Below the pieces are notes generated by a model, which was not told the origin of the DNA, ran no database searches, and worked only from the letters and a program-made list of their open reading frames with translations. A stretch of DNA of 64,000 nucleotides from Opitutales bacterium (GTDB taxonomy: Bacteria; Verrucomicrobiota; Verrucomicrobiia; Opitutales; UBA953): assembly GCA_024697185.1 (NCBI GenBank), contig JAILGB010000025.1, positions 611 to 64,610 on the forward strand, read 5' to 3'. A program made the position numbers and the translations under genes. Positions 2,426 to 64,000 of the stretch are shown here, piece after piece (position 1 is the stretch's first letter; every line of letters begins with the position of its first letter).

Positions 2426-3289
2426 ATGAATAAATATATCTCATCTATGGCGGTTTTCGCGTTTGCGGGAACGACTTTTCTTAATGCTCAAACGGCACCG
2501 GATCAAGAGGAATTCGTAGTAGTCAAAGTCCCGCGTTCGCTTCTTCAAAAGAACTCCCAAACGGCACAGGATCAAGAGGAATTCGTGGTAGTCGGCGAAG
2601 CTCCGAAAGAAGAAGCGGCTCCGGTTGCTCCCCAACGCCGCCGTCTCCGGCGAGAGTCCCCGCGCGAAGCCCCGAAAGAAGTGGCGGCTCCGGTTGCTCC
2701 GGTCGTGGAAGAAGCCGTTTACAACGGTTTCATGACGGTAGAAGGCTTTTATGCGGCGGCAAATAATAAAATCGATAAAGATATTGACAAAAAACTCAAT
2801 ATCGGCGGTCTTTGGATGACGGCCGGCCGCAAGTTTGAATTGGATCCGACACTCTCCTTCGATCTCGCCGGGATCTTCGCTGTCGGCGGCGGTTTTTACA
2901 ACGAAAAGAGACCTACAAATGAAGAACGATATATCCAAGCGGATGGTTTGCTCGGAATCCAGCCGTCTCTCACGGTTAATCTCGGCGATCATTTTTCGCT
3001 CAGCGGCGGATTGATGGCGGGATTGGATGTGCGCAGCATGAGATATAGATATTCGGGCTATATAGGTTGGCAGCATAGAATTGTCAACGACACCGACACG
3101 AGATGTGGCGCTTTTTACGGCTCGTTTCTAAAAGCGGATGTAAAATTCACAAAACGTTTTTCTCTGACGGCATCAGCGCGCTATATGGGAACGACGGTGC
3201 AAAACGAATTTGAAGTGGCAGGCGTAAGCTGGCAAACAGAAAAAACAAATTACGCCGTCGTCACTGTCGGCTTTAAATTCGCGTTTTAA
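2426..3289 (+). CDS. outer-membrane beta-barrel protein with a tandem-repeat Pro/Glu-rich linker
   Basis: Signal peptide MNKYISSMAVFAFAGTTFLNA from the ATG at 2426. Alternating beta-strand-like C-terminal half ending in the typical OMP terminus VGFKFAF. The N-terminal extension in the ORF track (2270) looks non-coding. Confidence 0.6.
   Translation: MNKYISSMAVFAFAGTTFLNAQTAPDQEEFVVVKVPRSLLQKNSQTAQDQEEFVVVGEAPKEEAAPVAPQRRRLRRESPREAPKEVAAPVAPVVEEAVYNGFMTVEGFYAAANNKIDKDIDKKLNIGGLWMTAGRKFELDPTLSFDLAGIFAVGGGFYNEKRPTNEERYIQADGLLGIQPSLTVNLGDHFSLSGGLMAGLDVRSMRYRYSGYIGWQHRIVNDTDTRCGAFYGSFLKADVKFTKRFSLTASARYMGTTVQNEFEVAGVSWQTEKTNYAVVTVGFKFAF
2489..2700 (+). repeat. two pairs of in-frame direct repeats with 69-nt period inside the OMP gene
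   Basis: 2489-2524 vs 2558-2593 (36 nt, 2 mismatches). 2603-2631 vs 2672-2700 (29 nt, 2 mismatches). They encode TA(P/Q)DQEEFVVV and PKE(E/V)AAPVAP. Confidence 0.85.
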
Positions 3290-3320
3290 GACCGCTTTAA
3301 TTTAAAAAATCAATTTTTGC

Positions 3321-3357
3321 CGTTCCCGTGAGACATTGTTTCGCGGGAACGTTTTTT
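3321..3357 (+). terminator. rho-independent terminator built from an inverted pair of the genome word
   Basis: CGTTCCCG (3321-3328) / CGGGAACG (3344-3351) stem, 15-nt loop, then TTTTTT. Lies 32 nt after the OMP stop. Confidence 0.65.
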
Positions 3358-3414
3358 AGGATTTGCGGGCGAGTTTTGTTGTGTTAAAATCTACTTATCG
3401 AACCCCTGATATTT

Positions 3415-4521
3415 ATGAAAAAGTTTTTGGCTCTTGTTTTGTTTTTTGTCTCTGTTGCGGGAACGCTGTTTGCTGCGGGAACGGCTTTGGTCGTCGCCGG
3501 ATCGGATTTTCAGGGGAAAACCCACGAGGAGAGCAGTGCGATTGTGGCATCGATATTGTCACAGATCAAAAAAGATTATCCGCGAGCCGACGGCTTTTTG
3601 TTTTGCGGGGATTATACGCTCGACATCAACAACCCGCGTTCGAGCGAGGCTGGGATTGCCGCTTTGAAAAAGACCTTGTCGGCGTCGGAAATGTCGTTCC
3701 CGCCGGAAGCGACGGTCTTGGTGCAGGGCAATCACGATCCCGAAGACACGCGCGGGATGTCGCCGAGCGGCGGGAACGATCCCGCGAACGGGCGTTGGGG
3801 TGTTTTTGTGATCAATGAGGACGATTTCATGTGGTTTCAGGGGTTGCGGCGCACAAACGGCAATCCGCATATCTCGGACGACGAATCGACGGTCGAATCC
3901 ACGGCGATGAATCTCATTATTTATCTTCAACAAAAGAAACTGGAAGATTTCAAGGGCCCGATTTTTGTCATTTCGCATTTGCCGCTGCATTACTCGATGC
4001 GCACCTACAACGACGGCGACGCGCAATATGCGCGATTGATTTTTGATGTGCTGAATCTCTACGCCCGTCAGGGTTTGAAAATCATCTATCTCTTCGGACA
4101 CAACCATTCTAACGGCTGGGACAACTATATCGGCAGCGCGCGCGTCTGCCTCTTGCCGGGCGAGAAAATGCCGATTGCGGCGTGTATCGAAGAAAATCTC
4201 GACCAGCGCAACGCCAAGGTGCGGGAACGCCATTACGACCACAAGCGTTGCGATATCCTGCCGCTGCATTTTGTCTATATGAATGCGGGCTACACGGGAT
4301 ATTTCAAGACGACGGACGCGAACGACGGCGCGGACCGCACTTTGTCGATGACGACTTTTGAAATCGGCGGGAACGGCAAAGTGAAGATTCGCCGTTACAG
4401 CGCGAACGGGCCTTGCGATCTCAAGGCTCCCGGCGTCGTCAACACACGCGACGGCGGACAGGAGGCAAAGCTCAACTTTTACAAACCTTACACGGACAAA
4501 AAAACAGTCTGTGAAATCTGA
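3415..4521 (+). CDS. secreted calcineurin-like metallophosphoesterase
   Basis: Signal peptide MKKFLALVLFFVSVAGTLFA. Motifs GSDFQG, FCGDYT, QGNHD, SHLPLH and GHNHSNG. Confidence 0.8.
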   Translation: MKKFLALVLFFVSVAGTLFAAGTALVVAGSDFQGKTHEESSAIVASILSQIKKDYPRADGFLFCGDYTLDINNPRSSEAGIAALKKTLSASEMSFPPEATVLVQGNHDPEDTRGMSPSGGNDPANGRWGVFVINEDDFMWFQGLRRTNGNPHISDDESTVESTAMNLIIYLQQKKLEDFKGPIFVISHLPLHYSMRTYNDGDAQYARLIFDVLNLYARQGLKIIYLFGHNHSNGWDNYIGSARVCLLPGEKMPIAACIEENLDQRNAKVRERHYDHKRCDILPLHFVYMNAGYTGYFKTTDANDGADRTLSMTTFEIGGNGKVKIRRYSANGPCDLKAPGVVNTRDGGQEAKLNFYKPYTDKKTVCEI

Positions 4522-53600: not shown

Positions 53601-54419
53601 GGCGACGAGGAAAATCCGGACGGGAACATTGAGCCGCCCTCTAAAAAACATCTCAATGTCGAGCCCGGCGAAGAAGACTTGGCAGCGATGGACTCGACCG
53701 ACTGGCAGCCGCTTCGCCGAGAAATCGAGGATTTGCGGGAACGCCTCCGCGCATTTGGAGCCATCAACCACGCCGCCATCGACGAATATCTCGAAGTGCG
53801 GGAACGCTTTAATTTCACAAAAAAACAATCCGACGACCTTTGGACCGCCAAAAACGAACTTACGGCTGCCATCGACGAAATTAACACGACCTCCCAAAAA
53901 CTTTTCACCGAAACCTTCGAACAGATCCGCAAAAATTTTGCCTTCACATTCGAACGGCTTTTCCACGGCGGCGAAAGCGATCTCACCCTCGTGCAATCCG
54001 ACGATGTTCTCGAATCCGGCATCGAAATCGTCGCCCGCCCGCCAGGAACAAAATTGCGCAGCATCTCTCTGCTCTCCGGCGGGCAGCGCACGATGACAGC
54101 CGTCGCCCTGCTTTTCGCCATCTACATGGTCAAGCCCTCGCCGTTTTGCGTGCTCGACGAACTCGACGCTCCGCTCGACGACGCCAATGTCGGACGCTTT
54201 ACCGACATCGTCAAAGAATTTACAAAATACTCCCAGTTCCTCGTCGTCACCCACAACAAAAAGACCGTCTCCGCAGCCAACATGATCTACGGCGTCACGA
54301 TGCAGGAACGCGGTGTCACCCAAGTCCTCTCGATGAGATTCAATCACGACAACGGCAAAACCGAAAACGCCACAAGCCCGGAGCTCGGCAAAGGCGGCTC
54401 CTTCAATATGGCGCGCTAA
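50640..54419 (+). CDS. smc: chromosome segregation protein SMC
   Basis: [27 protein letters not shown], long coiled coils, hinge, [16 protein letters not shown] and [11 protein letters not shown]. Confidence 0.95.
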
Positions 54420-54438
54420 AAACGCCGTTCCCGCGGAC

Positions 54439-55443
54439 TCAACGATAATGGAAGGAAATCACCGTCTCCTCCTCTTCACCGAGAAGCTCGATCATTTCCT
54501 GCGACCATTCCTCAAACGGCGCGCGGGACTCGATAGCGTCCCGACAAGCGTAAGCGGCAACTTCGCCTGCCGTCGATTCGAGAATTGACGAACTCGAAAT
54601 CACACCGTCGCTCCGCAAACAAAAACGCACGACAACATGCCCGCGCGCTCCCGTGATCTTGTTTTCACAAAGTTTATACCAGGAGGCTTCGATGGCTTCG
54701 AGCATTCGCTGCGTATATTCGCCGTATTCGCTGTAACGCGCGTCGATAGCGATCGTCCCGATCTCGTTTGTCCGCGTGTTGGATTTCATCAACAGCGATT
54801 TCAGTCCCGGAGCGGGAAGAACTTTCGGTTGGGTCGTCGGCGCGGGAACGCCCTCAATCAGTTGGGGCGCCTTTTTGGGACTTTCTCCGATTTTTACCGT
54901 TCCCGTATCGCTCACAAGTGCCTTAATGCCTTCGGCAATTTTGGCTTCATCCGCCTCTTCTGAAATTTCTTGCGCGGGATTCACACCGGCAGCATAGACA
55001 GAACGCCAGATCTCCGCTTGCGGCGGCAAAAATTCCCGCGGCAACAGCCGGTCGTTGACGGTCAAAGACTCCTCTTTTTCTCCGTCAAGTTCCGGACTGC
55101 GCCTCCAAGAATTGATATCCGGATTTTCCTGTGCGGCGCGCTGATCGGCAGAAGAGACTCTCAAAGTCTCTTCCGGAGGTTTTTTTGATTTCGCCTCAGA
55201 ATTGACGGGAACGAATTTCGGTTTTTTGAAAACCTCCGGCAACAGTTCCTCCGGCAAATCGACAGCCTTGATCAAATCAAGATTTGTCCGCTTTACAGGC
55301 GTCAGCGTCACCAAGACATCAATCGTCTTGGGCGCAATCAGCCATATCAAAAAATGAACGACAACTGCAGCCAGCGCAGCCCAAAGCAAACGTTTGCGGT
55401 TCCCGCGACGATAAGAGAGACTGAAAAGAGTCCGGTAAAACAT
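54439..55443 (-). CDS. TonB-like energy-transducer family protein
   Basis: N-terminal TM (LLWAALAAVVVHFLIWLIA), extended linker, and a C-terminal TonB_C-like region GHVVVRFCLRSDGVISSSSILESTAGE. Confidence 0.45.
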   Translation of the reverse strand: MFYRTLFSLSYRRGNRKRLLWAALAAVVVHFLIWLIAPKTIDVLVTLTPVKRTNLDLIKAVDLPEELLPEVFKKPKFVPVNSEAKSKKPPEETLRVSSADQRAAQENPDINSWRRSPELDGEKEESLTVNDRLLPREFLPPQAEIWRSVYAAGVNPAQEISEEADEAKIAEGIKALVSDTGTVKIGESPKKAPQLIEGVPAPTTQPKVLPAPGLKSLLMKSNTRTNEIGTIAIDARYSEYGEYTQRMLEAIEASWYKLCENKITGARGHVVVRFCLRSDGVISSSSILESTAGEVAAYACRDAIESRAPFEEWSQEMIELLGEEEETVISFHYR

Positions 55444-55466
55444 CCCGCGCCGCCCCCTTCAAAATC

Positions 55467-57236
<1,770 letters not shown>

Positions 57237-57397
57237 TTAAAAACGACGTTCCCGCGAAATCCAAAATCCAGAAACCCACGGAAGCGCGGAAACGGGAACA
57301 AACATTAAACACAAAGTCACAGAGCCGCGCGTTCCCGCCGTCCTAACGGGAACGCGGGAACGATTTTTATTTGACGTGGCGGGAACGGGAAAAGTGC

Positions 57398-57426
57398 TTG
57401 ACTTGGGTGGTGTTTGTGAGGATACT
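57398..57426 (+). promoter_or_regulatory. sigma-70-type promoter candidate
   Basis: TTGACT (57398-57403), 17-nt spacer, GATACT (57421-57426). Points into the RHS-junction stub region. Confidence 0.35.
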
Positions 57427-57491
57427 GAATGAGGTTTCCGGCAACCCCGCCGGAATAGCGATTTGTTAAAAACAATAGAAACAGGTGATTT

Positions 57492-57623
57492 ATGTCTGAT
57501 CAAGATCCGTCGTTGGAGCAATTGACTCCGTTCCCGGGAACATGGGTTCCGACGGGGAATGTTCCCGCGGATTCACTCCAGTGGTCATTATTCCTGAATA
57601 GCTTGTTTTATAATCTGTACTAA
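57492..57623 (+). pseudogene. decayed RHS-core junction stub (43 codons)
   Basis: ...LTPFPGTWVPTGNVPADSLQWSLFLNSLFYNLY* is homologous to FTPAGTPSRTTIPANPLQWSSEIYDSELALVYYNY of the orphan at 58975 onwards. DNA repeat 57562-57586 vs 59008-59032. Confidence 0.5.
57562..57586 (+). repeat. RHS junction repeat, copy 1
   Basis: TTCCCGCGGATTCACTCCAGTGGTC vs TTCCCGCGAATCCGCTCCAGTGGTC at 59008-59032 (3 mismatches). Confidence 0.75.
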
Positions 57624-57685
57624 AATCCTAAAAAATATAATGTATTAGTTTTAAGAATCCTTTCCCGTCACTTTTGGATTAGAAT

Positions 57686-58297
57686 ATGAGAGCTGTTGAT
57701 ACGGAATCGACCCTGTTTTGCTTGATTGTAAACATTGGATTTGTAGTTTTTGCAGGGATCTATGCAAATCCGACCTCTGTCGTACCTTACATTTATCAAG
57801 CATTTCTTTTATTTCTTTCAAATTGGCTTTGGATGCACTCGACAGCTGTACTTGGAGCTTTTTTTTGGATAAAAAGTAAGCTAAGGCGGAAGGATTATGA
57901 TGACGATCTTTCATGGAAATGGAGTGTGAGACTTGCTGTGTTTTCCGTTTTTTTCCCACCACTTCTCTTAGGAGGAATTTTTTGGTATTTAGGGGGCGAA
58001 GTGGTACATGATTGTATTCTTTCATCGATAGTTGTTGCAATGCTTCAGGTGCTTCTGGCATTGATTGGTTTTCTTCGTCCTCTTGCCACATGTACCCTGC
58101 AGGAAGAGCCATTATTCAATCCTCCACTTTTTAAGCGAGAAGATGGAGAGAAAATCAGCTCGTGGGAATTTCTTCTTCCGCGACCAATCATTAATGCTTT
58201 AAGAAATGCAAAGAGAACCCTAAAAAAAAGCAAATTGGGAGCTGGTATAGTTTCAGTTGTTGAAACATATTTCCGTTTGTTTGGGAGTCCGCTTTAG
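57686..58297 (+). CDS. hypothetical multi-pass membrane protein (possible immunity protein)
   Basis: 4-5 hydrophobic helices. AT-rich and free of the genome word. Same strand as the RHS cassettes. Competes with the antisense ORF 57651-58112. Confidence 0.4.
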   Translation: MRAVDTESTLFCLIVNIGFVVFAGIYANPTSVVPYIYQAFLLFLSNWLWMHSTAVLGAFFWIKSKLRRKDYDDDLSWKWSVRLAVFSVFFPPLLLGGIFWYLGGEVVHDCILSSIVVAMLQVLLALIGFLRPLATCTLQEEPLFNPPLFKREDGEKISSWEFLLPRPIINALRNAKRTLKKSKLGAGIVSVVETYFRLFGSPL

Positions 58298-58432
58298 GTA
58301 CAAAAAATGAGAAAATCTTATGCTTTCGACAACAGAACTTGGCAGCTAGCAATCAGGGAGCCGAATCACAAAAAGCCAAGACAATAACAAAACTTATTGA
58401 GCAAGCTAAACGCCTTGGAGAAAACTATTGAA

Positions 58433-58924
58433 ATGAAAAAAGCAGACTATATTGAGTTAAAAAAAGAGATTTCTTTGCAGATGAAAGAGAAAAACTATGT
58501 TATTGCACAGCGTATGATTTTAAAAGCACTGGAAGAATTTCCATATGACACTGATTTGCTTTTGAAAAAATACGTTTGCGCTTGGTTTGTTCCTTCAGAT
58601 GCTTTTGTTGAAGATGTTGCCAAATCAACATTAGAGGTTGCGGCAGAACTGAGTCCAAACTCCGTTGCTAATCAAATTGAATTAGGAAATCACTATTATG
58701 CCGTGTTAGAGGATTTCGAACGTGCAAAAGTATGTTTCCGAAAAGCTGTAGATATTGCGCTACAACAAATCCGAGAGTCTTATCTCGGATTGATGAAAAT
58801 TTCCATTGATGAATATAGCAAAGAGGAATACCAGAAAGTTAAAGAAGAAATTAGCCTTTTATCGGAAGATGTTCGGAACTACTGCAACATAAATGCAGAG
58901 ATTGAAGTATTGGAAGAAGATTAA
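58433..58924 (+). CDS. hypothetical helical (TPR-like) protein, possible immunity protein
   Basis: GGAG lies 9-10 nt before the ATG at 58433. All-helical composition with a TPR-like segment (NQIELGNHYYAVLEDFERAKVCFRKAVDIA). Confidence 0.4.
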   Translation: MKKADYIELKKEISLQMKEKNYVIAQRMILKALEEFPYDTDLLLKKYVCAWFVPSDAFVEDVAKSTLEVAAELSPNSVANQIELGNHYYAVLEDFERAKVCFRKAVDIALQQIRESYLGLMKISIDEYSKEEYQKVKEEISLLSEDVRNYCNINAEIEVLEED

Positions 58925-59687
58925 AACACAAAGTTGTATGTATAAAAAATCCCAAAAGACGTGCGATATAGTCTTTACGCCGGCGGGAACGCCGTCCAGA
59001 ACAACCATTCCCGCGAATCCGCTCCAGTGGTCGTCCGAAATCTACGATTCCGAGCTCGCCCTTGTCTATTACAACTACCGCCATTATTCCCCAATCCTTG
59101 GTCGCTGGCTCTCCCGCGACCCAATCGAAGAACAAGGCGGGCTGAATTTGTATTGCTTTTTAAAAAATGATTTCTTTAAAACAGATTATTTAGGTTTAAA
59201 ATACATTGAACGACTATGTCGAGAACTAATTCAAAAAATTGAGAGTTTTTCAAATTCTTTAAAAAAAGAAATAGATAAATACGATCCAATAAAAGACGGA
59301 AAAGGTGGGTTTATCCATGCACATGGAATAACAAAACCGGGTGGTCATTATAAGGAAATAAAAGACTTCCAAAATGGACTAAAAAATAAACTTAAAAAAT
59401 GGAAAGATGTTTGTAAAGACGATGGTGATCCGCCTTGTTCGCCTTTCCCTTATCCTAGATTTGCAGATCAACTTGCAAATAAATATATTATAGAACCCCA
59501 ATATTCAATAGAATCAAATGATGATACAATATGGATTGCGATTTTATCAGGAGTGACGGTATCAATTGTTGCTGTTGTAATTGCAGGAAATGCAGGTCCA
59601 CAAGCATTGGCTCCAGAAGAAATTATAACGATTCCTGTTGCTGCAATTGTCGGAGGAATTATAGGCGCAATTAAATTTATCGACTAA
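58893..59687 (+). CDS. orphan RHS C-terminal cassette: end of RHS core plus an uncharacterised toxin domain
   Basis: YDSELALVYYNYRHYSPILGRWLSRDPIEEQGGLNLYCFLKNDFFKTDYLGL matches the RHS-repeat-associated core end (YD..tGLyYyr.RYYdP..GRflS.DPig..GG.NLY.yv.NnP....DP.GL). A ~165-aa unique tail follows and ends in two Gly/Ala-rich TM helices. The true start is uncertain (homology begins about 58975). Confidence 0.7.
   Translation: MQRLKYWKKIKTQSCMYKKSQKTCDIVFTPAGTPSRTTIPANPLQWSSEIYDSELALVYYNYRHYSPILGRWLSRDPIEEQGGLNLYCFLKNDFFKTDYLGLKYIERLCRELIQKIESFSNSLKKEIDKYDPIKDGKGGFIHAHGITKPGGHYKEIKDFQNGLKNKLKKWKDVCKDDGDPPCSPFPYPRFADQLANKYIIEPQYSIESNDDTIWIAILSGVTVSIVAVVIAGNAGPQALAPEEIITIPVAAIVGGIIGAIKFID
59008..59032 (+). 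repeat. RHS junction repeat, copy 2
   Basis: See 57562-57586. Confidence 0.75.
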
Positions 59688-59891
59688 GTAAAATTTCTAC
59701 TTTATGGAAAATAATTATAAGCATAGAGCAATTTTAATTTTTGTTAAAAAACTTATTTTTAGGTTTTTCCCGACTAAAGATTTAATAAAAAAAATTGATA
59801 GGAATTCAGAGAGTTTATAGTATTTTTTCTATTCTCATTTTTTTTCGGGAAGATTTATTCGGAAAACTATTCCGTTATTTTATCAGAACCT

Positions 59892-60482
59892 TTGATTTCC
59901 TCATTTGATCCTTTGGATAAAAAATTGGGCTGTCTTTTTGTCGACATTGATGAGATAAACAAAGAAATATTAAAAATGCTTGAAATTGGATCGACAGAAT
60001 ATAAAATTGACGGAGTAGTTAAACTTTTTTTTGATCCAACGGATGGAATTGTTTTATGTTTTGCGGTTGAACATTGCGAGTATTGGTATGAACGTGGAAG
60101 CAATTCGTATCCTTTTATTTTATTAGGAAATATTTTTAATTTTGTTGAAAAAGAAATGGAAAAAAGTTCAAAAAACAAATGTGTTTTGGATATTATTCCG
60201 AGTTCGATTTCAAGTGATAAAAAAATTTGGGCGATAAAGAATCTTGCTTTTCATCCTGAATTTACAGAAGAAATACATATGAAATTCTGCCGTCAGATTA
60301 TTTCTCAAAACGATCCTCTTTTGAAAATTGCGTATTTGGAGGCATTTGAAAAATCCCATTTAAAATTTTTATATTCAGATTCTATTCTTCCTTTTTTTGT
60401 AAATGATTCTGATGAAAATGTTCGTTTAAAAGCTAAAAATCTTCTTAACGATGCAAATAATTTTCATGGTTGTTGTTTTTAG
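59892..60482 (+). CDS. hypothetical protein, candidate cognate immunity protein
   Basis: First sizeable ORF downstream of the RHS toxin tail on the same strand. AT-rich. HEAT-like C-terminal segment DSDENVRLKAKNLL. Start uncertain (TTG at 59892 or ATG at 59976). Confidence 0.4.
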   Translation: MISSFDPLDKKLGCLFVDIDEINKEILKMLEIGSTEYKIDGVVKLFFDPTDGIVLCFAVEHCEYWYERGSNSYPFILLGNIFNFVEKEMEKSSKNKCVLDIIPSSISSDKKIWAIKNLAFHPEFTEEIHMKFCRQIISQNDPLLKIAYLEAFEKSHLKFLYSDSILPFFVNDSDENVRLKAKNLLNDANNFHGCCF

Positions 60483-60688
60483 GAACAATGTTAAAAGGTG
60501 GATAAATTTCTTGAAATCATATATAAAAAAAGAGAACGGGGGGCTCTCCGCGACGGGACGGCTTTCTGTCGCTTCTTACGGGAACGTTGACTTTGCTAAC
60601 AATTACCTCGCGGGAACGAATCTTTTGGCGGGCGTGGCAAGTTCGTTTCTTCCTTTTAAGTTAGCCGCAGTCTCGCAATCGGAAAACT

Positions 60689-61633
60689 TTATTTTGCTTT
60701 GAGTTTTTCAAAAGCTTGGGTCATTTTGTTTTTGGCGCCCCAAGCCCTGCGACGCTTTTGCGGATCGAGAATTCGGCAATAGCCGGTGATTTTGTGTTGT
60801 TCAAGTTTCCAGCCTTCATGCCGGTCCAAAACCCTCCACCAAATTTCCCCGTCGATAACGCAAAATTCCAAATTCAAATTATCCTGCGGCACCATTATGC
60901 GTCCGTCGCTTTCCTGTTCGCCGTTTAAAACTTGTTTCAGATACTGAAAATAAAATGGGGCATAATGGTTTGCAATCCGTTTTAAGCTCTCAAAATTTCC
61001 CCATGTCGCCTCTATTGGTGTTTTTGCTGTGATATCATCGGGAACGGCGATTTCGACAAAATTGTCCAATTTTTTTATCGTCCCTCCGGCTCCCGCAGCA
61101 CTTGCCTCTTCGTCTCCGCCCAAGGTATAAAGATATTTTAAAGTCACATCATCCGGATTGCAGATTGAGATTACGGGCAAAAGACTGCCCTTGCCCGCGT
61201 CGTTGAGATCGGGATCGTCATTGGGGATTGCCGCCGCGAGCAAAATCGCGCTTTTAACCTTTATTCCCTGTCTGCCGAGATTGGCGATTGCGCGCGCCAC
61301 TATCCGCCCGCCGAGCGAGTGCCCGACCAATATCAGGCGGGAACGCTCAGAGCCCGGCATTCGGACGATTTCCTCCGCCAACAGAAGCGCCGCCGCATCG
61401 GCGTTTTTTATCGAGGAAGCCCAAAGCCCGTTCCCGTCCCAGGTTTTAAAAACAAGTTCCGCATCGGGGAAGGTTTCAGAAAAAGCTTTCCAAATGGCGC
61501 CTTCGGAATCTTTTGTCCTGAGCCAACCCGGAAAATACCAGACAAGATCCGCATTTTTTTCATCTTCGGCCGCTCCCGCCCAAAGCGTTGAAAAAATAGC
61601 ACAAAAAACAATTGCGATTTTTCGGAAAAACAT
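60689..61633 (-). CDS. secreted alpha/beta-hydrolase (lipase/esterase-like)
   Basis: Signal peptide MFFRKIAIVFCAIFSTLWAGA. Nucleophile elbow LVGHSLGG. Confidence 0.6.
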   Translation of the reverse strand: MFFRKIAIVFCAIFSTLWAGAAEDEKNADLVWYFPGWLRTKDSEGAIWKAFSETFPDAELVFKTWDGNGLWASSIKNADAAALLLAEEIVRMPGSERSRLILVGHSLGGRIVARAIANLGRQGIKVKSAILLAAAIPNDDPDLNDAGKGSLLPVISICNPDDVTLKYLYTLGGDEEASAAGAGGTIKKLDNFVEIAVPDDITAKTPIEATWGNFESLKRIANHYAPFYFQYLKQVLNGEQESDGRIMVPQDNLNLEFCVIDGEIWWRVLDRHEGWKLEQHKITGYCRILDPQKRRRAWGAKNKMTQAFEKLKAK

Positions 61634-61739
61634 TGCTAAAAATTATCGTTGCGGCGGGAACGCCGATCATTCTTATAAAGCCATTATAGATTAAAATTTG
61701 TGTTCCCGCGAAAATTTACCGAATACTTTTTAGGCGGAC

Positions 61740-61776
61740 AAAAAAAACGTTCCCGCGAGGATTTTCTCACGGGAAC
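61740..61776 (-). terminator. glgC terminator built from an inverted pair of the genome word
   Basis: On the minus strand: CGTTCCCGTGAGAAAATCCTCGCGGGAACG followed by TTTTTTT. Nearly the same module as the terminator at 3321-3357. Confidence 0.7.
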
Positions 61777-61801
61777 GATTTGTTTTTTGGCGGGAACGCG
61801 C

Positions 61802-63100
61802 TTAGTCGTCGATTTCGCCGATGACTGTTCCCGGAGGAATAATCGCGTCCTTTTTGGTGATGAGCACGCCGTCCTTCACATAGATTTCCGGAGTCTCAAA
61901 ACCGTCTTTGACGCCTTTGGGGGAGAGTCGGCAATTTTTGCCGATTCGAGTGCCCTTATCGATGATGGCGTCGCGAATCACACAATTTTCTCCGATACCG
62001 ATAATCGGTTTTCCCGTCTTGCGGCATTCGGCGACATCGTTGATGTTTTCGTAATAGTCGGCGCCCATGTAAACGACGTTTTTGAGATCGCAACCGGAAT
62101 CGACGACGGAACGGACGCCGATGACGCAGCGATTAAGTTTGGAATTGCTGATAATGGCACCGTCGCCCATAACGACATGTTTAATCGTGCAACCGTTGAG
62201 TTTTGCCGGCGGCAAAAGACGGTCGTGCGTATAAATCGGTGCGACATCGTCAAAGAAATCGAACGGGGGAACATCGTCTGTCAGCGAAAGATTGGTCTCC
62301 CAAAACGCGCGGACGGTTCCGATATCTTCCCAATAATCGTCAAAGACATGGGCAACGAGTTTTTTCTTGCCAAGCAAGCCCGGGATGACTTCCTTGCCGA
62401 AATCCTTCATATCGTTGTCGAGGGCTTCGCAAAGGAATTTCCCGGAGAAGATATAGATGCCCATAGACGCGAGGCAGTATTCCGCATCGCTCTTGTCCGA
62501 GAGCGCCTCACGCAGTTTGCCGCGAACGACAAGCGATTGGATGACTGCCGGGTCTTTCGGCTTTTCGACAAATTCGACAATCTCCGAATTTTCGTTGACG
62601 CGCATGACACCGAGAGCGGAAACTTCTTTTTTGGGCATTGCCTTTGCCGCGATTGTGACATCGGCATTTTCCGCGATGTGCTGATCGAGCATTTTCTTAA
62701 AATCCATTCGGAAAAGTTGGTCTCCCGAAAGAATCAGAACATAGTCGTTAGGCTGGAGATTGAAGTGTTGAAGATTGTGGCGGACGGCATCGGCGGTTCC
62801 CTGATACCAGGATTCGCTTTCCATATTTTGCTCTGCCGCAAGAATATCGACATAGCCTTTGCCGAAGGAATCAAATTTGTAAGTGCGCTGAATATGACTA
62901 TGCAGCGACGCGGTGTTAAACTGCGTGAGCACACAGATTGTGTTGAATCCGGAGTTCAAACAGTTGCTGATCGGGATGTCGATCAAACGATATTTGCCCG
63001 CCAAGGGAACGGCAGGTTTGCAACGAGCTGCGGTTAGAGGATACAGACGGGTGCCACGCCCTCCGCCCATAATTACACAAACAACTTTAGATTTTGCCAT
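61802..63100 (-). CDS. glgC: glucose-1-phosphate adenylyltransferase
   Basis: VCVIMGGGRGTRLYPLT, WYQGTADAV, and a C-terminal left-handed beta-helix region. Confidence 0.9.
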   Translation of the reverse strand: MAKSKVVCVIMGGGRGTRLYPLTAARCKPAVPLAGKYRLIDIPISNCLNSGFNTICVLTQFNTASLHSHIQRTYKFDSFGKGYVDILAAEQNMESESWYQGTADAVRHNLQHFNLQPNDYVLILSGDQLFRMDFKKMLDQHIAENADVTIAAKAMPKKEVSALGVMRVNENSEIVEFVEKPKDPAVIQSLVVRGKLREALSDKSDAEYCLASMGIYIFSGKFLCEALDNDMKDFGKEVIPGLLGKKKLVAHVFDDYWEDIGTVRAFWETNLSLTDDVPPFDFFDDVAPIYTHDRLLPPAKLNGCTIKHVVMGDGAIISNSKLNRCVIGVRSVVDSGCDLKNVVYMGADYYENINDVAECRKTGKPIIGIGENCVIRDAIIDKGTRIGKNCRLSPKGVKDGFETPEIYVKDGVLITKKDAIIPPGTVIGEIDD

Positions 63101-63194
63101 AATTATACTAAAAATCGGGGTTAAAACACTTATAGACTATTCCCGCATAAAATAAATCGCAAGAAAATTCGTCTTTTGTCATTTATCATTTTTT

Positions 63195-64000
63195 TTAAAA
63201 CGGGTCGCCGCCGTCTTCATCGATCCCGTCCCAGTTACGATAATTGTAAGATTTGCCTCCGCCAAAGTCGTGGGAATAATGGACAATCTGACCGAGCCGC
63301 TGATAGGTTTCGGGATTTGCCTCGCGGACAAAACGGCTCAACTCGTAGGTCATCTGGTCGCTAAATCTCGGACATTCGAGGATATAGACCAAGGTCAATT
63401 CATCCTTGGCGCGCGTGCAGGCGACATAAAAAAGCCGCCGCTCCTCATCGACCGTGTCTTCTTCGAGCGAGCGTTTTGACGGGAACAGTTCATCGGAACA
63501 CGACAAAACAAAGACATACGGGAACTCGAGTCCCTTCGCCTGGTGAATCGTCGATAAGCGCACCTTGGGCTCCTCAAAATCGCGTTCCCGCGACTCGATG
63601 TCGCTTCGCGTGTTCCCGGAGTCCATCAGGCTGACTTGTGCGAGAAAATCGGCGAGCGTCTCGTAATTGGAGGCAAAGTCGATCAAGCTGTTCAAATCGT
63701 CACAGCGTTCCCGCCAGTTCGGATAAATCCGTTTCGCAAAGTCGCCATACCATCCTTCGATGCCGATGGCGACGACCATCCTGGGCTCCATGATTTCCTG
63801 AACGCCCTCCCCGTCCGTTCCCGCCGCCTCATCCGCCAAGGCGAACAAATCCGCCTCTTCATTTGCGGGAACGGGATCCGCATCAGGCATTGCCGCCGCC
63901 TCGATTTTCGTTCCCGTCAAGCCTTCATACATATTGTGCAGCGTCAGGACAAAATCCTTAAAATCGTCGAGAGCCGGCGCGGGAACGATTTTTAAAACAG
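63195..64000 (-). CDS. UvrD/Rep/PcrA-family helicase, C-terminal part (continues beyond the window)
   Basis: STIHQAKGLEFPYVFV and RRLFYVACTRAKDELTLVY (motifs V/VI). The frame is open through 64000. Confidence 0.8.
   Translation of the reverse strand, partial: VLKIVPAPALDDFKDFVLTLHNMYEGLTGTKIEAAAMPDADPVPANEEADLFALADEAAGTDGEGVQEIMEPRMVVAIGIEGWYGDFAKRIYPNWRERCDDLNSLIDFASNYETLADFLAQVSLMDSGNTRSDIESRERDFEEPKVRLSTIHQAKGLEFPYVFVLSCSDELFPSKRSLEEDTVDEERRLFYVACTRAKDELTLVYILECPRFSDQMTYELSRFVREANPETYQRLGQIVHYSHDFGGGKSYNYRNWDGIDEDGGDPF

What the first reader, a model, noticed from the sequence alone, without database searches (positions are those of the whole stretch)
58893..60482. Orphan RHS C-terminal cassette with an uncharacterised toxin tail and candidate immunity gene, far from any full-length rhs gene
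The ORF contains only the last ~60 residues of an RHS core (YDSELALVYYNYRHYSPILGRWLSRDPIEEQGGLNLYCFLKND....DYLGL). That ending is the conserved auto-cleavage end of RHS-repeat-associated cores. A unique ~165-aa tail follows, containing KDGKGGFIHAHGITKPGGHY and ending in two Gly/Ala-rich hydrophobic helices (IAILSGVTVSIVAVVIAGNAG...IPVAAIVGGIIGAI). A 196-aa AT-rich ORF follows on the same strand, the usual position of an immunity gene. GC content and the genome word change exactly at the core/tail junction: one word copy at 58983 in the core-derived part and none in the tail. This is the classic architecture of displaced 'orphan' rhs toxin/immunity modules that can be swapped onto a main rhs gene by recombination. 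I do not recognise the toxin domain.
Basis: partly seen in the sequence, partly recalled or inferred. Interest (0 to 1): 0.65.

Follow-up and report, generated by a model that had tools for sequence, protein, structure and literature searches.

The report
Decayed orphan RHS toxin array
This is a real leftover RHS toxin cassette in a gut Opitutales genome, but it sits in a 3-kb graveyard of a toxin/immunity array: its true immunity gene is cut down to 37 codons and the ORF proposed as its immunity gene is a truncated protector for a different toxin.

Summary
ORF 58893-59687 carries the last ~70 residues of an RHS core (TIGR03696, E 6e-16), then a 163-aa AT-rich tail ending in two hydrophobic helices.

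The tail belongs to a widespread RHS C-terminal family that Pfam and NCBIfam do not model (177 clusters). In 8 of 8 other loci it is followed at once by one small cytoplasmic protein family. A Hadza-gut Opitutales MAG has the same tail (3.9% DNA divergence; core end 16%) plus an intact 144-aa partner. Window homology to that locus stops at about 59816, so only 37 codons of the partner remain (59704-59820).

The 196-aa ORF is unrelated to that family. It is a 5'-truncated homologue of a gene that follows an HExxH toxin tail in a Ca. Spyradenecus array. Upstream lie a core-end stub and two intact immunity-type genes whose toxins are missing.

The whole AT-rich island (about 57490-60500) is therefore a deletion-riddled orphan array. 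Independent metagenome contigs confirm both junctions around the cassette. The tail models as a Cys-clamped helical hairpin plus a transmembrane hairpin with no known fold match; membrane targeting is a guess.

The parts
57492..57623 (+). Decayed RHS core-end stub (43-codon ORF). It marks the left edge of the AT-rich island.
   Evidence: A 25-nt direct repeat, 57562-57586 versus 59008-59032, matches at 22 of 25 positions. The peptide TPFPGTWVPTGNVPADSLQWS aligns to the TPFG...VPANPLQWS junction of many rhs loci; each match is weak on its own (E 0.06-0.9) but they are consistent. An X1 metagenome contig joins a near-identical FPGTWV.TG. sequence directly to the 59008 core end.
57686..58297 (+). 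Intact 203-aa multi-pass membrane protein. It is an immunity-type gene whose toxin is missing here.
   Evidence: 57% identical over its full length (E about 1e-86) to 205-aa ORFs in L069 (950-1567, directly after a Gly-rich RHS toxin tail) and in L075 (37-654). Hydrophobic segments are shown. In the window only about 60 nt separate it from the core stub.
58397..58924 (+). Intact 175-aa TPR-like protein. It is an immunity-type gene whose toxin is missing here.
   Evidence: 31% identical (E 9e-23) to L075 1599-2072, which directly follows a 278-aa orphan rhs fragment. That fragment in turn follows the 205-aa membrane protein. In the window only 100 nt lie between the two immunity-type genes. Weak TPR Pfam hits were found.
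58983..59195 (+). Last ~70 codons of an RHS core, including the RD...D..GL autoproteolysis motif region. The upstream part of the ORF (58893-58982) is not RHS-derived.
   Evidence: TIGR03696 matches at E 5.9e-16. Homology to L007 and to about 70 other rhs loci begins at 58983 or later. This segment is 16% diverged from L007 (35/213). The left junction is crossed by independent contigs X19 and X20.
59196..59510 (+). Conserved toxin-tail module (C...KYDP.DG.GG...TKPGGHY...Q.G...C).
   Evidence: phmmer finds 177 clusters at E<=1e-3, and the conserved part is tail residues 8-104. Cys8 is present in 63/64 sequences; Cys73, D34, H51 and P31 in 71/71. AF2 gives pLDDT above 90 with a helix-loop-helix plus a beta-hairpin. 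Foldseek against the PDB finds nothing (best E 2.3). There is no Pfam or NCBIfam model.
59520..59684 (+). Two Gly/Ala-rich hydrophobic helices (predicted transmembrane hairpin) at the C-terminus.
   Evidence: Kyte-Doolittle segments at ORF residues 210-236 and 239-264. These are conserved in P0122, P0001-3 and P0123-4. The C-terminal extension varies across the family, and some members end in a Tox-WTIP domain.
59704..59820 (+). 5' remnant (37 homologous codons, then Leu and a stop) of the cognate immunity gene.
   Evidence: tblastn of the L007 144-aa partner hits 59704-59814 at 97% identity (E 1e-19). DNA homology to L007 is perfect up to about 59815 and then unrelated. The partner belongs to the conserved family found after 8 of 8 tail modules.
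59802..60482 (+).
   Evidence: Its only relative is L037 912-1577 (221 aa), at 36% identity and E 5e-29. That gene overlaps the stop of an HExxH toxin tail by 4 nt. The in-frame stretch from 59805 (FREFIVFFLFSFFFGKIY) aligns to L037's N-terminal hydrophobic anchor, but the ATG and first ~6 codons are absent. It is an ORFan in a 5.8-billion-protein search. The junction is crossed by independent contigs X12 and X13.

Best explanation
The AT-rich island at about 57490-60500, between thiC and an alpha/beta-hydrolase gene, is the deletion-eroded remnant of an rhs orphan toxin/immunity array in an uncultured human-gut Opitutales bacterium.

Reading left to right, it holds:
1. A core-end stub.
2. An immunity-type membrane protein (203 aa) with its toxin deleted.
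3. An immunity-type TPR-like protein (175 aa) with the preceding orphan rhs deleted.
4. One orphan rhs fragment cut down to its last ~70 core codons, but with an intact toxin tail.
5. That toxin's cognate immunity gene, truncated after 37 codons.
6. Fused to it by the same deletion, an immunity-type gene of a fourth module that has lost its start codon and first ~6 codons.

The tail and its immunity remnant are a recently shared mobile cassette. They are 2-4% diverged from a Hadza-gut Opitutales MAG, whereas the core end is 16% diverged. This is the usual mosaic produced by recombination at the core/tail boundary.

The cassette is most likely silent cargo. It has no delivery part and no intact immunity gene. 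Recombining it onto a main rhs gene would be self-harmful unless immunity is encoded elsewhere.

Shown: the anatomy, the homologies, the breakpoints and the toxin-immunity linkage in relatives.

Inferred: the order of deletion events, the silence of the ORF, and the toxin's action. The toxin itself is a Cys-clamped helical hairpin with a conserved Gly/His loop and a two-helix hydrophobic end. My best guess, at roughly 45%, is that it inserts in the target's membrane and dissipates it, as proposed for Tox-WTIP. A soluble cytoplasmic immunity protein would neutralise it by binding the conserved hairpin module.
For: RHS core end: TIGR03696.

Breakpoints and divergence:
- blastn of the window against L007 aligns 58983-59836 with 2966-3819 at 92.7% identity.
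- Differences by segment: core 35/213, tail 19/492, immunity remnant 2/113, unrelated beyond about 59816.
- Core dS is 0.58 against tail dS 0.058.

Cognate immunity family:
- The L007 partner (144 aa) matches the family profile at E 5.9e-21.
- The tail module is followed by this family in 8 of 8 distinct loci: L001, L002, L003, L005, L006, L007, L009 and L052. The last two were not used to build the profile. The window is the sole exception.
- No family member lies anywhere in the 64-kb window.

The 196-aa ORF:
- Its only homologue follows an HExxH tail in L037 and has an N-terminal anchor that the window copy has lost.

Upstream immunity-type genes:
- The 203-aa and 175-aa ORFs have homologues in immunity positions in L069 and L075.
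- L075 preserves the order membrane protein, orphan rhs, TPR protein.

Junction checks:
- Independent contigs from other samples cross both junctions with 0 differences.
- Samples carrying this organism show zero depth over the 3' part of the cognate immunity gene.

Toxin family:
- 177 clusters. All long carriers are RHS-repeat proteins of 760-1917 aa.
- The AF2 module has pLDDT above 90.
- One member (P0004) has a Tox-WTIP end. Zhang et al. 2012 describe Tox-WTIP as a two-helix pore-forming toxin (PMC3482391).
Against: - The whole genome could not be searched. An intact copy of the cognate immunity gene, or a main rhs gene sharing this junction, may exist elsewhere. The metagenome check is low-depth, and contigs show presence, not absence.
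- The tail ORF is fully open. Its omega against L007 is 0.55 from only 18 substitutions, so purifying selection, and hence function, cannot be excluded.
- The ORF has in-frame ATGs (58893, 58938), so internal expression is possible.
- The two intact upstream immunity-type genes may be maintained by selection. 'Decay' may therefore describe only the toxin parts.
- A soluble immunity protein is unusual for a pore-former, which weakens the membrane-toxin guess.
- The conserved Asp, His and Cys residues could instead indicate metal or ligand binding, or catalysis.
- The left-hand stub rests on short, individually weak matches.
Confidence: 0.8

Rival explanations
1. It proposes a complete, functional orphan toxin/immunity cassette, with the 196-aa ORF as the cognate immunity gene, held in reserve to be recombined onto a main rhs gene.
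For: The position and strand of the 196-aa ORF fit the model, and its composition is AT-rich. Its one homologue sits in an immunity position in an rhs array. The orphan-recombination mechanism is established in Salmonella (PMC3967940).
Against: - Eight of eight homologous tails pair with a different family.
- A 37-codon remnant of that family lies between the tail and the 196-aa ORF.
- Profile comparison gives probability 0.05.
- The 196-aa ORF's homologue pairs with an HExxH tail.
- The window copy lacks its start codon and part of its N-terminal anchor.
Confidence: 0.05
2. Under this reading the island is maintained as an orphan-immunity ('poly-immunity') island. It would protect against Rhs toxins fired by neighbouring gut Opitutales, and the toxin tail would be a neutral hitch-hiker not yet deleted.
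For: Two immunity-type genes are full-length and intact while their toxins are precisely missing. Orphan immunity genes of the tail's partner family also occur without the toxin in L038 and L044. Orphan immunity islands are documented in gut bacteria and in Rhs systems (titles and abstracts: PMC10539506, 10.1101/2025.05.03.651265).
Against: - Two of the four immunity-type genes are truncated: imm3 to 37 codons, and imm4 without a start.
- There is no expression evidence. Promoter and terminator scans are at chance level.
- Selection on the intact genes could not be measured, because the homologues are too diverged.
Confidence: 0.35
3. Here the 264-aa ORF is expressed from its own start and acts inside the producer. 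It could work as a toxin-antitoxin-like or growth-regulating element, as reported for the Salmonella orphan Rhs, or as a membrane protein with a non-toxic role.
For: In-frame ATGs at 58893 and 58938 give a fully open frame. Both catalytic-motif aspartates of the core end are retained, as read from the sequence. Precedent exists in PMC7043789 (abstract).
Against: - There is no intact antitoxin or immunity gene.
- The openness of the frame is explained by recency, with only 19 differences from the L007 copy.
- No RNA evidence was obtained.
- No promoter signal rises above chance.
Confidence: 0.07
4. The junctions would be metagenome assembly chimeras created by collapsing repeated rhs sequences.
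For: The window comes from a 74.5-kb metagenome-type contig. rhs cores are multi-copy in these samples, shown by depth spikes at 59005-59151 and 57388-57534.
Against: Contigs from other runs cross 58983 (X19, X20) and about 59816 (X12, X13) with 0 differences. Others cross the stub/TM junction and the TM/TPR junction (X2 57555-58318 and X1 58149-58497).
Confidence: 0.02

Closest known systems
Orphan rhs-CT/rhsI modules downstream of main rhs genes (E. coli, Salmonella, Dickeya; Poole et al. 2011 PMC3150448; Koskiniemi et al. 2014 PMC3967940)
   Same: It is a C-terminal rhs fragment retaining core homology, followed by a polymorphic toxin tail. Composition drops at the core/tail junction. The mosaic divergence indicates cassette exchange.
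   Different: It is not next to a main rhs gene within 64 kb. Only about 70 core codons remain. The cognate immunity gene is truncated, and the neighbouring modules have lost their toxins.
Tox-WTIP (PF15654), the predicted two-helix pore-forming polymorphic toxin domain (Zhang et al. 2012, PMC3482391)
   Same: It is a short, highly hydrophobic C-terminal end predicted to form two membrane helices. A TIP tripeptide begins the second helix (EEIITIPVAA). One family member (P0004) carries a bona fide Tox-WTIP end after the same conserved module.
   Different: The window tail has no PF15654 hit at E<=1. There is no RxxR in helix 1 and no Trp before TIP. The conserved hallmark here is the upstream Cys-clamped helical-hairpin module, which PF15654 does not cover.
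Orphan / poly-immunity gene islands (Zhang et al. 2012; Serratia Rhs orphan immunity, PMC10539506; gut Bacteroidales orphan immunity, 10.1101/2025.05.03.651265)
   Same: It is a run of immunity-type genes without their toxins, in a compositionally foreign island, in a gut bacterium.
   Different: It still contains one intact toxin tail. Two of the four immunity-type genes are broken. The lineage is Opitutales (Verrucomicrobiota).
P0122 module in the Hadza-gut Opitutales MAG (CAKUQY01 contig 14; L007/L010)
   Same: The tail is 93% identical in protein. The spacer and the first 37 codons of the immunity gene match at 98% DNA identity.
   Different: There the fragment is 542 aa and lies in an array next to a cut main rhs end. 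It has an intact 144-aa immunity gene and a further orphan downstream, at a different chromosomal site (rpoN-tuf).

Membership tests
RHS repeat-associated core domain (TIGR03696) | Profile match above the curated cutoff | tested here: met
   58.7 bits against a cutoff of 32.5, E 5.9e-16, at residues 32-101.
RHS repeat-associated core domain (TIGR03696) | DPxGL-type C-terminal cleavage motif with the upstream conserved Arg-Asp and second Asp | tested here: met
   The sequence reads RWLSRDPIEE...TDYLGL|K. R75, D76, D98 and G101 are invariant in the 12-sequence alignment. Cleavage itself was not tested.
Full-length RHS/YD-repeat toxin | YD-repeat shell (PF05593 / PF25023) and an N-terminal delivery region | tested here: not met
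   There are no RHS_repeat or TEN_YD-shell hits in the 264-aa ORF. Homology to rhs loci begins only at 58983.
Orphan rhs toxin/immunity module | Polymorphic C-terminal toxin domain also found on full-length RHS proteins | tested here: met
   The tail module lies at the C-end of RHS-repeat proteins of 763-1917 aa.
Orphan rhs toxin/immunity module | Intact cognate immunity gene immediately downstream | tested here: not met
   Only 37 of 144 codons of the cognate gene remain. No family member lies elsewhere in the window.
Orphan rhs toxin/immunity module | Main rhs gene in the same genome sharing the core end, as a recombination partner | not testable with these tools
None lies in the 64-kb window. 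Related core ends are multi-copy in samples carrying the organism.
Tox-WTIP (PF15654) | Pfam profile match | tested here: not met
   No hit at E<=1 for the window ORF. P0004 matches at E 1e-12, but only in its own C-end.
Tox-WTIP (PF15654) | Two membrane-spanning helices, with RxxR in the first and Wx[ST]IP in the second (PMC3482391) | tested here: inconclusive
   Two hydrophobic segments are present. TIP is present (IITIP), but there is no Trp before it and no RxxR.
Cognate immunity family of the tail (alignment A4; weak DUF6714 resemblance) | The 196-aa ORF matches the family profile | tested here: not met
   hhalign probability 0.05. hmmsearch --max finds nothing at E<5 in the six-frame window.

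The most novel reading that the evidence does not exclude
The KYDP...TKPGGHY module would define a new, widespread RHS-delivered toxin class, not merely another pore-former. It would be a disulfide-clamped helical hairpin whose invariant Asp/His/Gly loop binds a specific envelope target, tethered by a variable hydrophobic tail. A dedicated soluble immunity family would neutralise it. The window's immunity-less but intact copy would then show that such a toxin is harmless unless delivered from outside.
Probability: 0.25. Interest if true: 0.55.

Novelty: new member of a known kind. Interest (0 to 1): 0.3.

Why it matters
The window feature itself is ordinary: a decaying rhs orphan array of the kind known from Enterobacteria, here in a poorly studied gut Verrucomicrobiota lineage.

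Its main value is as a pointer in three directions.

1. It flags a large RHS C-terminal toxin family that Pfam, NCBIfam and the PDB do not cover (177 clusters at 50% identity). The family has a confidently modelled fold without structural relatives and a strictly linked immunity family. It is a ready-made toxin/immunity pair for experimental study.
2. It shows that gut Opitutales, Akkermansia and related MAGs carry many multi-orphan rhs arrays whose toxins and immunity proteins are almost all unannotated.
3. It is a cautionary example. Position alone mis-assigns immunity genes when arrays erode by internal deletions.

Tried and rejected
- Exact-sequence look-ups of the window's own proteins (the 168-aa ORF, the hydrolase and ThiC): none is on record.
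- Looking for the same chromosomal site in relatives through the flanking hydrolase. The nearest homologue is only 57% identical and its contig is not syntenic, so no empty-site comparison was possible.
- The genome-contig scan did not return the window's own genome.
- Promoter and terminator scans were indistinguishable from shuffled sequence.
- Rfam and tRNA scans of the flanks were empty. There is no tRNA or integrase hallmark of an integrative island.
- Foldseek of the tail model against the PDB gave no significant match (best E 2.3).
- Foldseek of the low-confidence 196-aa model (pLDDT 60) also gave none (best E 0.17). Its hits are generic HEAT-like repeats, and a CdiI chain at E 1.9 is not significant.
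- The PDB sequence search with the family profile hit only the RHS core end.
- Recovery of the alternative allele seen at 57570 failed. It is not in the window, not in the fetched loci, and not in JGI metagenomes.
- I considered and rejected remote homology between the 196-aa ORF and the cognate immunity family. The forced alignment showed a few shared residues, but profile methods gave nothing.
Full report
**1. Observation**

The ORF at 58893-59687 (+, 264 aa) exists. Residues 32-101 match the RHS repeat-associated core domain TIGR03696 at 58.7 bits against a cutoff of 32.5 (E 5.9e-16). The match ends in TDYLGL, the position of the DPxGL-type autoproteolysis site. No YD-repeat or shell domain is present.

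The remaining 163 residues (59196-59684) have no Pfam or NCBIfam match. They end in two hydrophobic segments.

GC drops from about 0.45 to 0.27-0.37 at the junction. The island of low GC spans about 57500-60500. It lies between thiC (55467-57230, minus strand) and an alpha/beta-hydrolase gene (60689-61633, minus strand).

The 'genome word' is CGGGAACG, with 194 copies in 64 kb. Only one copy, at 58984 in the core-derived part, lies between about 57600 and 60570.

**2. The tail is a member of a large, unmodelled RHS C-terminal family**

A word-indexed search found RHS proteins from Opitutales and other MAGs that share the tail. An exhaustive phmmer search with the tail alone found 177 representative clusters at E<=1e-3.

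The conserved part is tail residues 8-104: C...KYDP.DG.GG...TKPGGHY.EI..LQ.GLKN...C. The most conserved positions are:

| Position (tail numbering) | Conservation |
|---|---|
| Cys8 | 63/64 |
| Cys73, Asp34, His51, Pro31 | 71/71 each |

All long carriers tested (763-1917 aa) are RHS-repeat proteins.

After the module comes a variable extension, usually hydrophobic or Pro-rich, with a median length of 46 aa. In the window and its nearest relatives this extension is a Gly/Ala-rich two-helix hairpin. In P0004 and a few others it is a bona fide Tox-WTIP domain. Zhang et al. 2012 predicted Tox-WTIP to be a two-helix pore-forming toxin (PMC3482391).

AlphaFold2 with a 71-sequence alignment models the module at pLDDT above 90. 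The model is a long antiparallel helical hairpin (helices 2-28 and 50-73) with a small beta-hairpin loop that carries the invariant Gly/His residues. The hydrophobic end is low-confidence. The two near-invariant cysteines sit at the start of helix 1 and the end of helix 2, so a disulfide clamp is plausible; this is inference.

Foldseek against the PDB gives nothing better than E 2.3. A profile search of PDB sequences matches only the RHS core end.

**3. The tail has a strictly linked partner family, and the window lacks it**

In every locus I could inspect, the gene carrying the module is followed within about 10-200 nt by a member of one small protein family. The members are soluble by hydropathy and 132-174 aa long. 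These loci are L001, L002, L003/4, L005, L006 and L007/8. L009 and L052 show the same arrangement and were not used to build the profile. That makes 8 of 8 distinct loci.

The family has only weak DUF6714-like Pfam hits. The linkage holds whatever the type of C-terminal extension. This suggests the partner recognises the conserved module (inference).

The window's 196-aa ORF is not a member:

| Method | Result |
|---|---|
| hhalign | probability 0.05 |
| hmmsearch --max against the six-frame window | nothing below E 5 |
| tblastn | nothing |

**4. The decisive comparison**

P0122 is a 542-aa orphan rhs fragment from a Hadza-gut Opitutales MAG. It carries the same tail at 93% protein identity. 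In its contig (L007/L010) it sits in an array: a cut rhs end, two small ORFs, P0122, a 144-aa ORF, another orphan and two more small ORFs. The array lies next to rpoN-tuf-nusG. The 144-aa ORF matches the partner-family profile at E 5.9e-21.

DNA homology between the window and L007 runs from 58983 to about 59816 (92.7% over 855 nt). Divergence by segment is strongly mosaic:

| Segment | Differences | Divergence |
|---|---|---|
| Core end | 35/213 | 16% |
| Tail | 19/492 | 3.9% |
| Spacer | 1/16 | 6% |
| Immunity-gene 5' end | 2/113 | 1.8% |
| Beyond about 59816 | 8/20 | unrelated |

Core dS is 0.58 and tail dS is 0.058. This is the expected signature of cassette exchange at the core/tail boundary.

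The window therefore retains only codons 1-37 of the cognate immunity gene (59704-59814, 97% identical). These are followed by one unrelated codon and a stop at 59818-59820.

**5. What the 196-aa ORF is**

In 5.8 billion proteins it matches only its own 168-aa gene call. Among the fetched rhs loci it has one relative. That is a 221-aa ORF in a Ca. Spyradenecus array (L037 912-1577), at 36% identity over 191 aa and E 5e-29. The L037 gene overlaps by 4 nt the stop of an RHS fragment whose tail bears an HExxH motif.

The L037 protein starts with MSRGKK and a hydrophobic anchor. In the window, the frame is open from 59802. The stretch FREFIVFFLFSFFFGKIY aligns to that anchor, but the start codon and first ~6 codons are gone.

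A single deletion thus appears to have fused codon 37 of one immunity gene to about codon 7 of the next module's immunity gene. The same deletion would have removed the intervening orphan toxin.

An AF2 model of the ORF is poor (pLDDT 60), with a HEAT-like helical C-terminal half and no significant PDB match.

**6. The rest of the island tells the same story**

- The 203-aa membrane protein (57686-58297) is 57% identical over its full length to 205-aa ORFs in two arrays. One directly follows a Gly-rich RHS toxin tail in L069. The other opens L075.
- The 175-aa TPR-like protein (58397-58924) is 31% identical (E 9e-23) to the ORF that follows a 278-aa orphan rhs in L075.
- L075 has the order membrane protein, orphan rhs, TPR protein. 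The window has the two small genes only 100 nt apart.
- At the left edge, a 43-codon ORF (57492-57623) preserves a degraded TPFG...VPA.(S/P)LQWS core-end junction. It shares a 25-nt repeat (22/25) with the cassette's core end.
- An independent first-stage note (e1-4240709) reached the same reading of this stub. I re-derived it before seeing that note.

**7. Are the junctions real?**

Contigs from other gut-metagenome runs of one study carry the island with zero differences. They cross the following junctions:

| Junction | Crossing contigs |
|---|---|
| Stub to membrane-protein gene | X2 57555-58318 |
| Membrane-protein gene to TPR gene | X1 58149-58497 |
| Left cassette junction, 58983 | X19 58848-59038; X20 58949-59411 |
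| Right junction, about 59816 | X12 59754-59954; X13 59669-59896 |

Assembly chimerism is therefore unlikely.

I also laid four of these runs on the L007 reference. They show only the window-type variant, and zero depth over the 3' three-quarters of the immunity gene. This is weak evidence, given 2-5x depth, that no intact close copy exists in these communities.

**8. Limits**

I could not look for the main rhs gene or for an immunity copy elsewhere in the genome.
- The genome-contig scan did not return the window's own genome.
- The nearest homologue of the flanking hydrolase is 57% identical and not syntenic. No empty-site or fuller-array allele could be compared.
- Omega for the tail (0.55) rests on 18 substitutions and cannot separate constraint from neutrality.
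- No expression evidence was obtained. Consensus promoter and terminator scans are at chance level.

**9. Mechanism**

Shown:
- the anatomy, homologies and breakpoints;
- the toxin-immunity linkage in relatives;
- the fold confidence and the lack of known structural relatives.

Inferred:
- The island is what is left of an rhs orphan array after several internal deletions. These removed toxin-coding parts and, in one case, most of an immunity gene.
- The surviving tail is probably unexpressed cargo.
- When borne by a full-length RHS protein, the tail would be released by the core's autoproteolysis. Its hydrophobic end would let it act on the target's membrane.
- The soluble partner would block it by binding the conserved hairpin.

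I put about 0.8 on the relic-array reading and about 0.45 on the membrane-damage mechanism. The soluble immunity protein and the invariant Asp/His/Cys residues leave room for a ligand- or metal-binding mechanism, or a catalytic one.

**10. Novelty and verdict**

Orphan rhs modules, their recombination onto main genes (PMC3967940; PMC3150448) and orphan immunity islands (PMC10539506 and others) are well known. This is a new member of a known kind, in gut Opitutales.

The part worth following up is the toxin/immunity family pair that Pfam, NCBIfam and the PDB do not cover, not this eroded copy.

Noticed in passing
window 57419-57573: In at least five gut-metagenome runs (X1, X3, X4, X12, X20), contigs match this stretch with 2-4 differences. 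They then continue after 57570 with unrelated sequence (GTTTTGCTCCTG...; in frame ...NVPAGFAPVTDDTG; up to 684 nt more). Their depth is often higher than the island's. Either this is an alternative allele of the locus in co-occurring strains, or the stub is multi-copy.
   Followed up: partly
window, whole 64 kb: The 8-mer CGGGAACG and its complement occur 194 times, about once per 330 bp, on both strands. The motif is nearly absent from the AT-rich island. The copy at 58983 is part of the rhs coding sequence (AGTPS) and is also present in the Hadza MAG copy.
   Followed up: partly
window 58307-58387: A tiny ORF, MRKSYAFDNRTWQLAIREPNHKKPRQ, lies in the 100-nt spacer between the two intact immunity-type genes. 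YAFD..NR resembles the YAFD.(I/V)GNR start of orphan rhs fragments in related arrays. It may be a stub of the deleted orphan, but it is too short to test.
   Followed up: no
window 57231-57480 (thiC leader): There is no Rfam match, including no TPP riboswitch, at E<=0.1 in 55000-62000. There is also no tRNA gene in 54000-64000.
   Followed up: partly
P0194, P0218, P0248, P0249: Very small predicted proteins (61-92 aa) consist of little more than the Gly-rich hydrophobic hairpin (AGNAGPQALVPEEIVTVPA...), without the conserved module or any RHS part. They could be gene fragments from arrays or stand-alone membrane peptides.
   Followed up: no
L005 1073-2032; L038 and L044 9201-9533: The tail's partner family occurs as two tandem paralogues after the Omnitrophica toxin (L005). 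It also occurs without any tail module in two Ca. Spyradenecus loci, where the copies are orphan immunity genes.
   Followed up: no
L037 1-915; L069 2-946; L075 750-1586: Other RHS tails in gut Opitutales arrays have no Pfam match at all. Examples are an HExxH-motif tail, a Gly-rich beta-looking tail and a helical tail. These arrays are a reservoir of unannotated toxins and immunity proteins.
   Followed up: partly
window 60689-61633 (-): The flanking alpha/beta-hydrolase has no homologue above 57% identity in 5.8 billion proteins. Yet the toxin cassette next to it is 96% identical in DNA to one in a Hadza Opitutales MAG. This is consistent with lateral movement of the cassette, but the genome-wide relatedness of the two organisms could not be measured.
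   Followed up: partly
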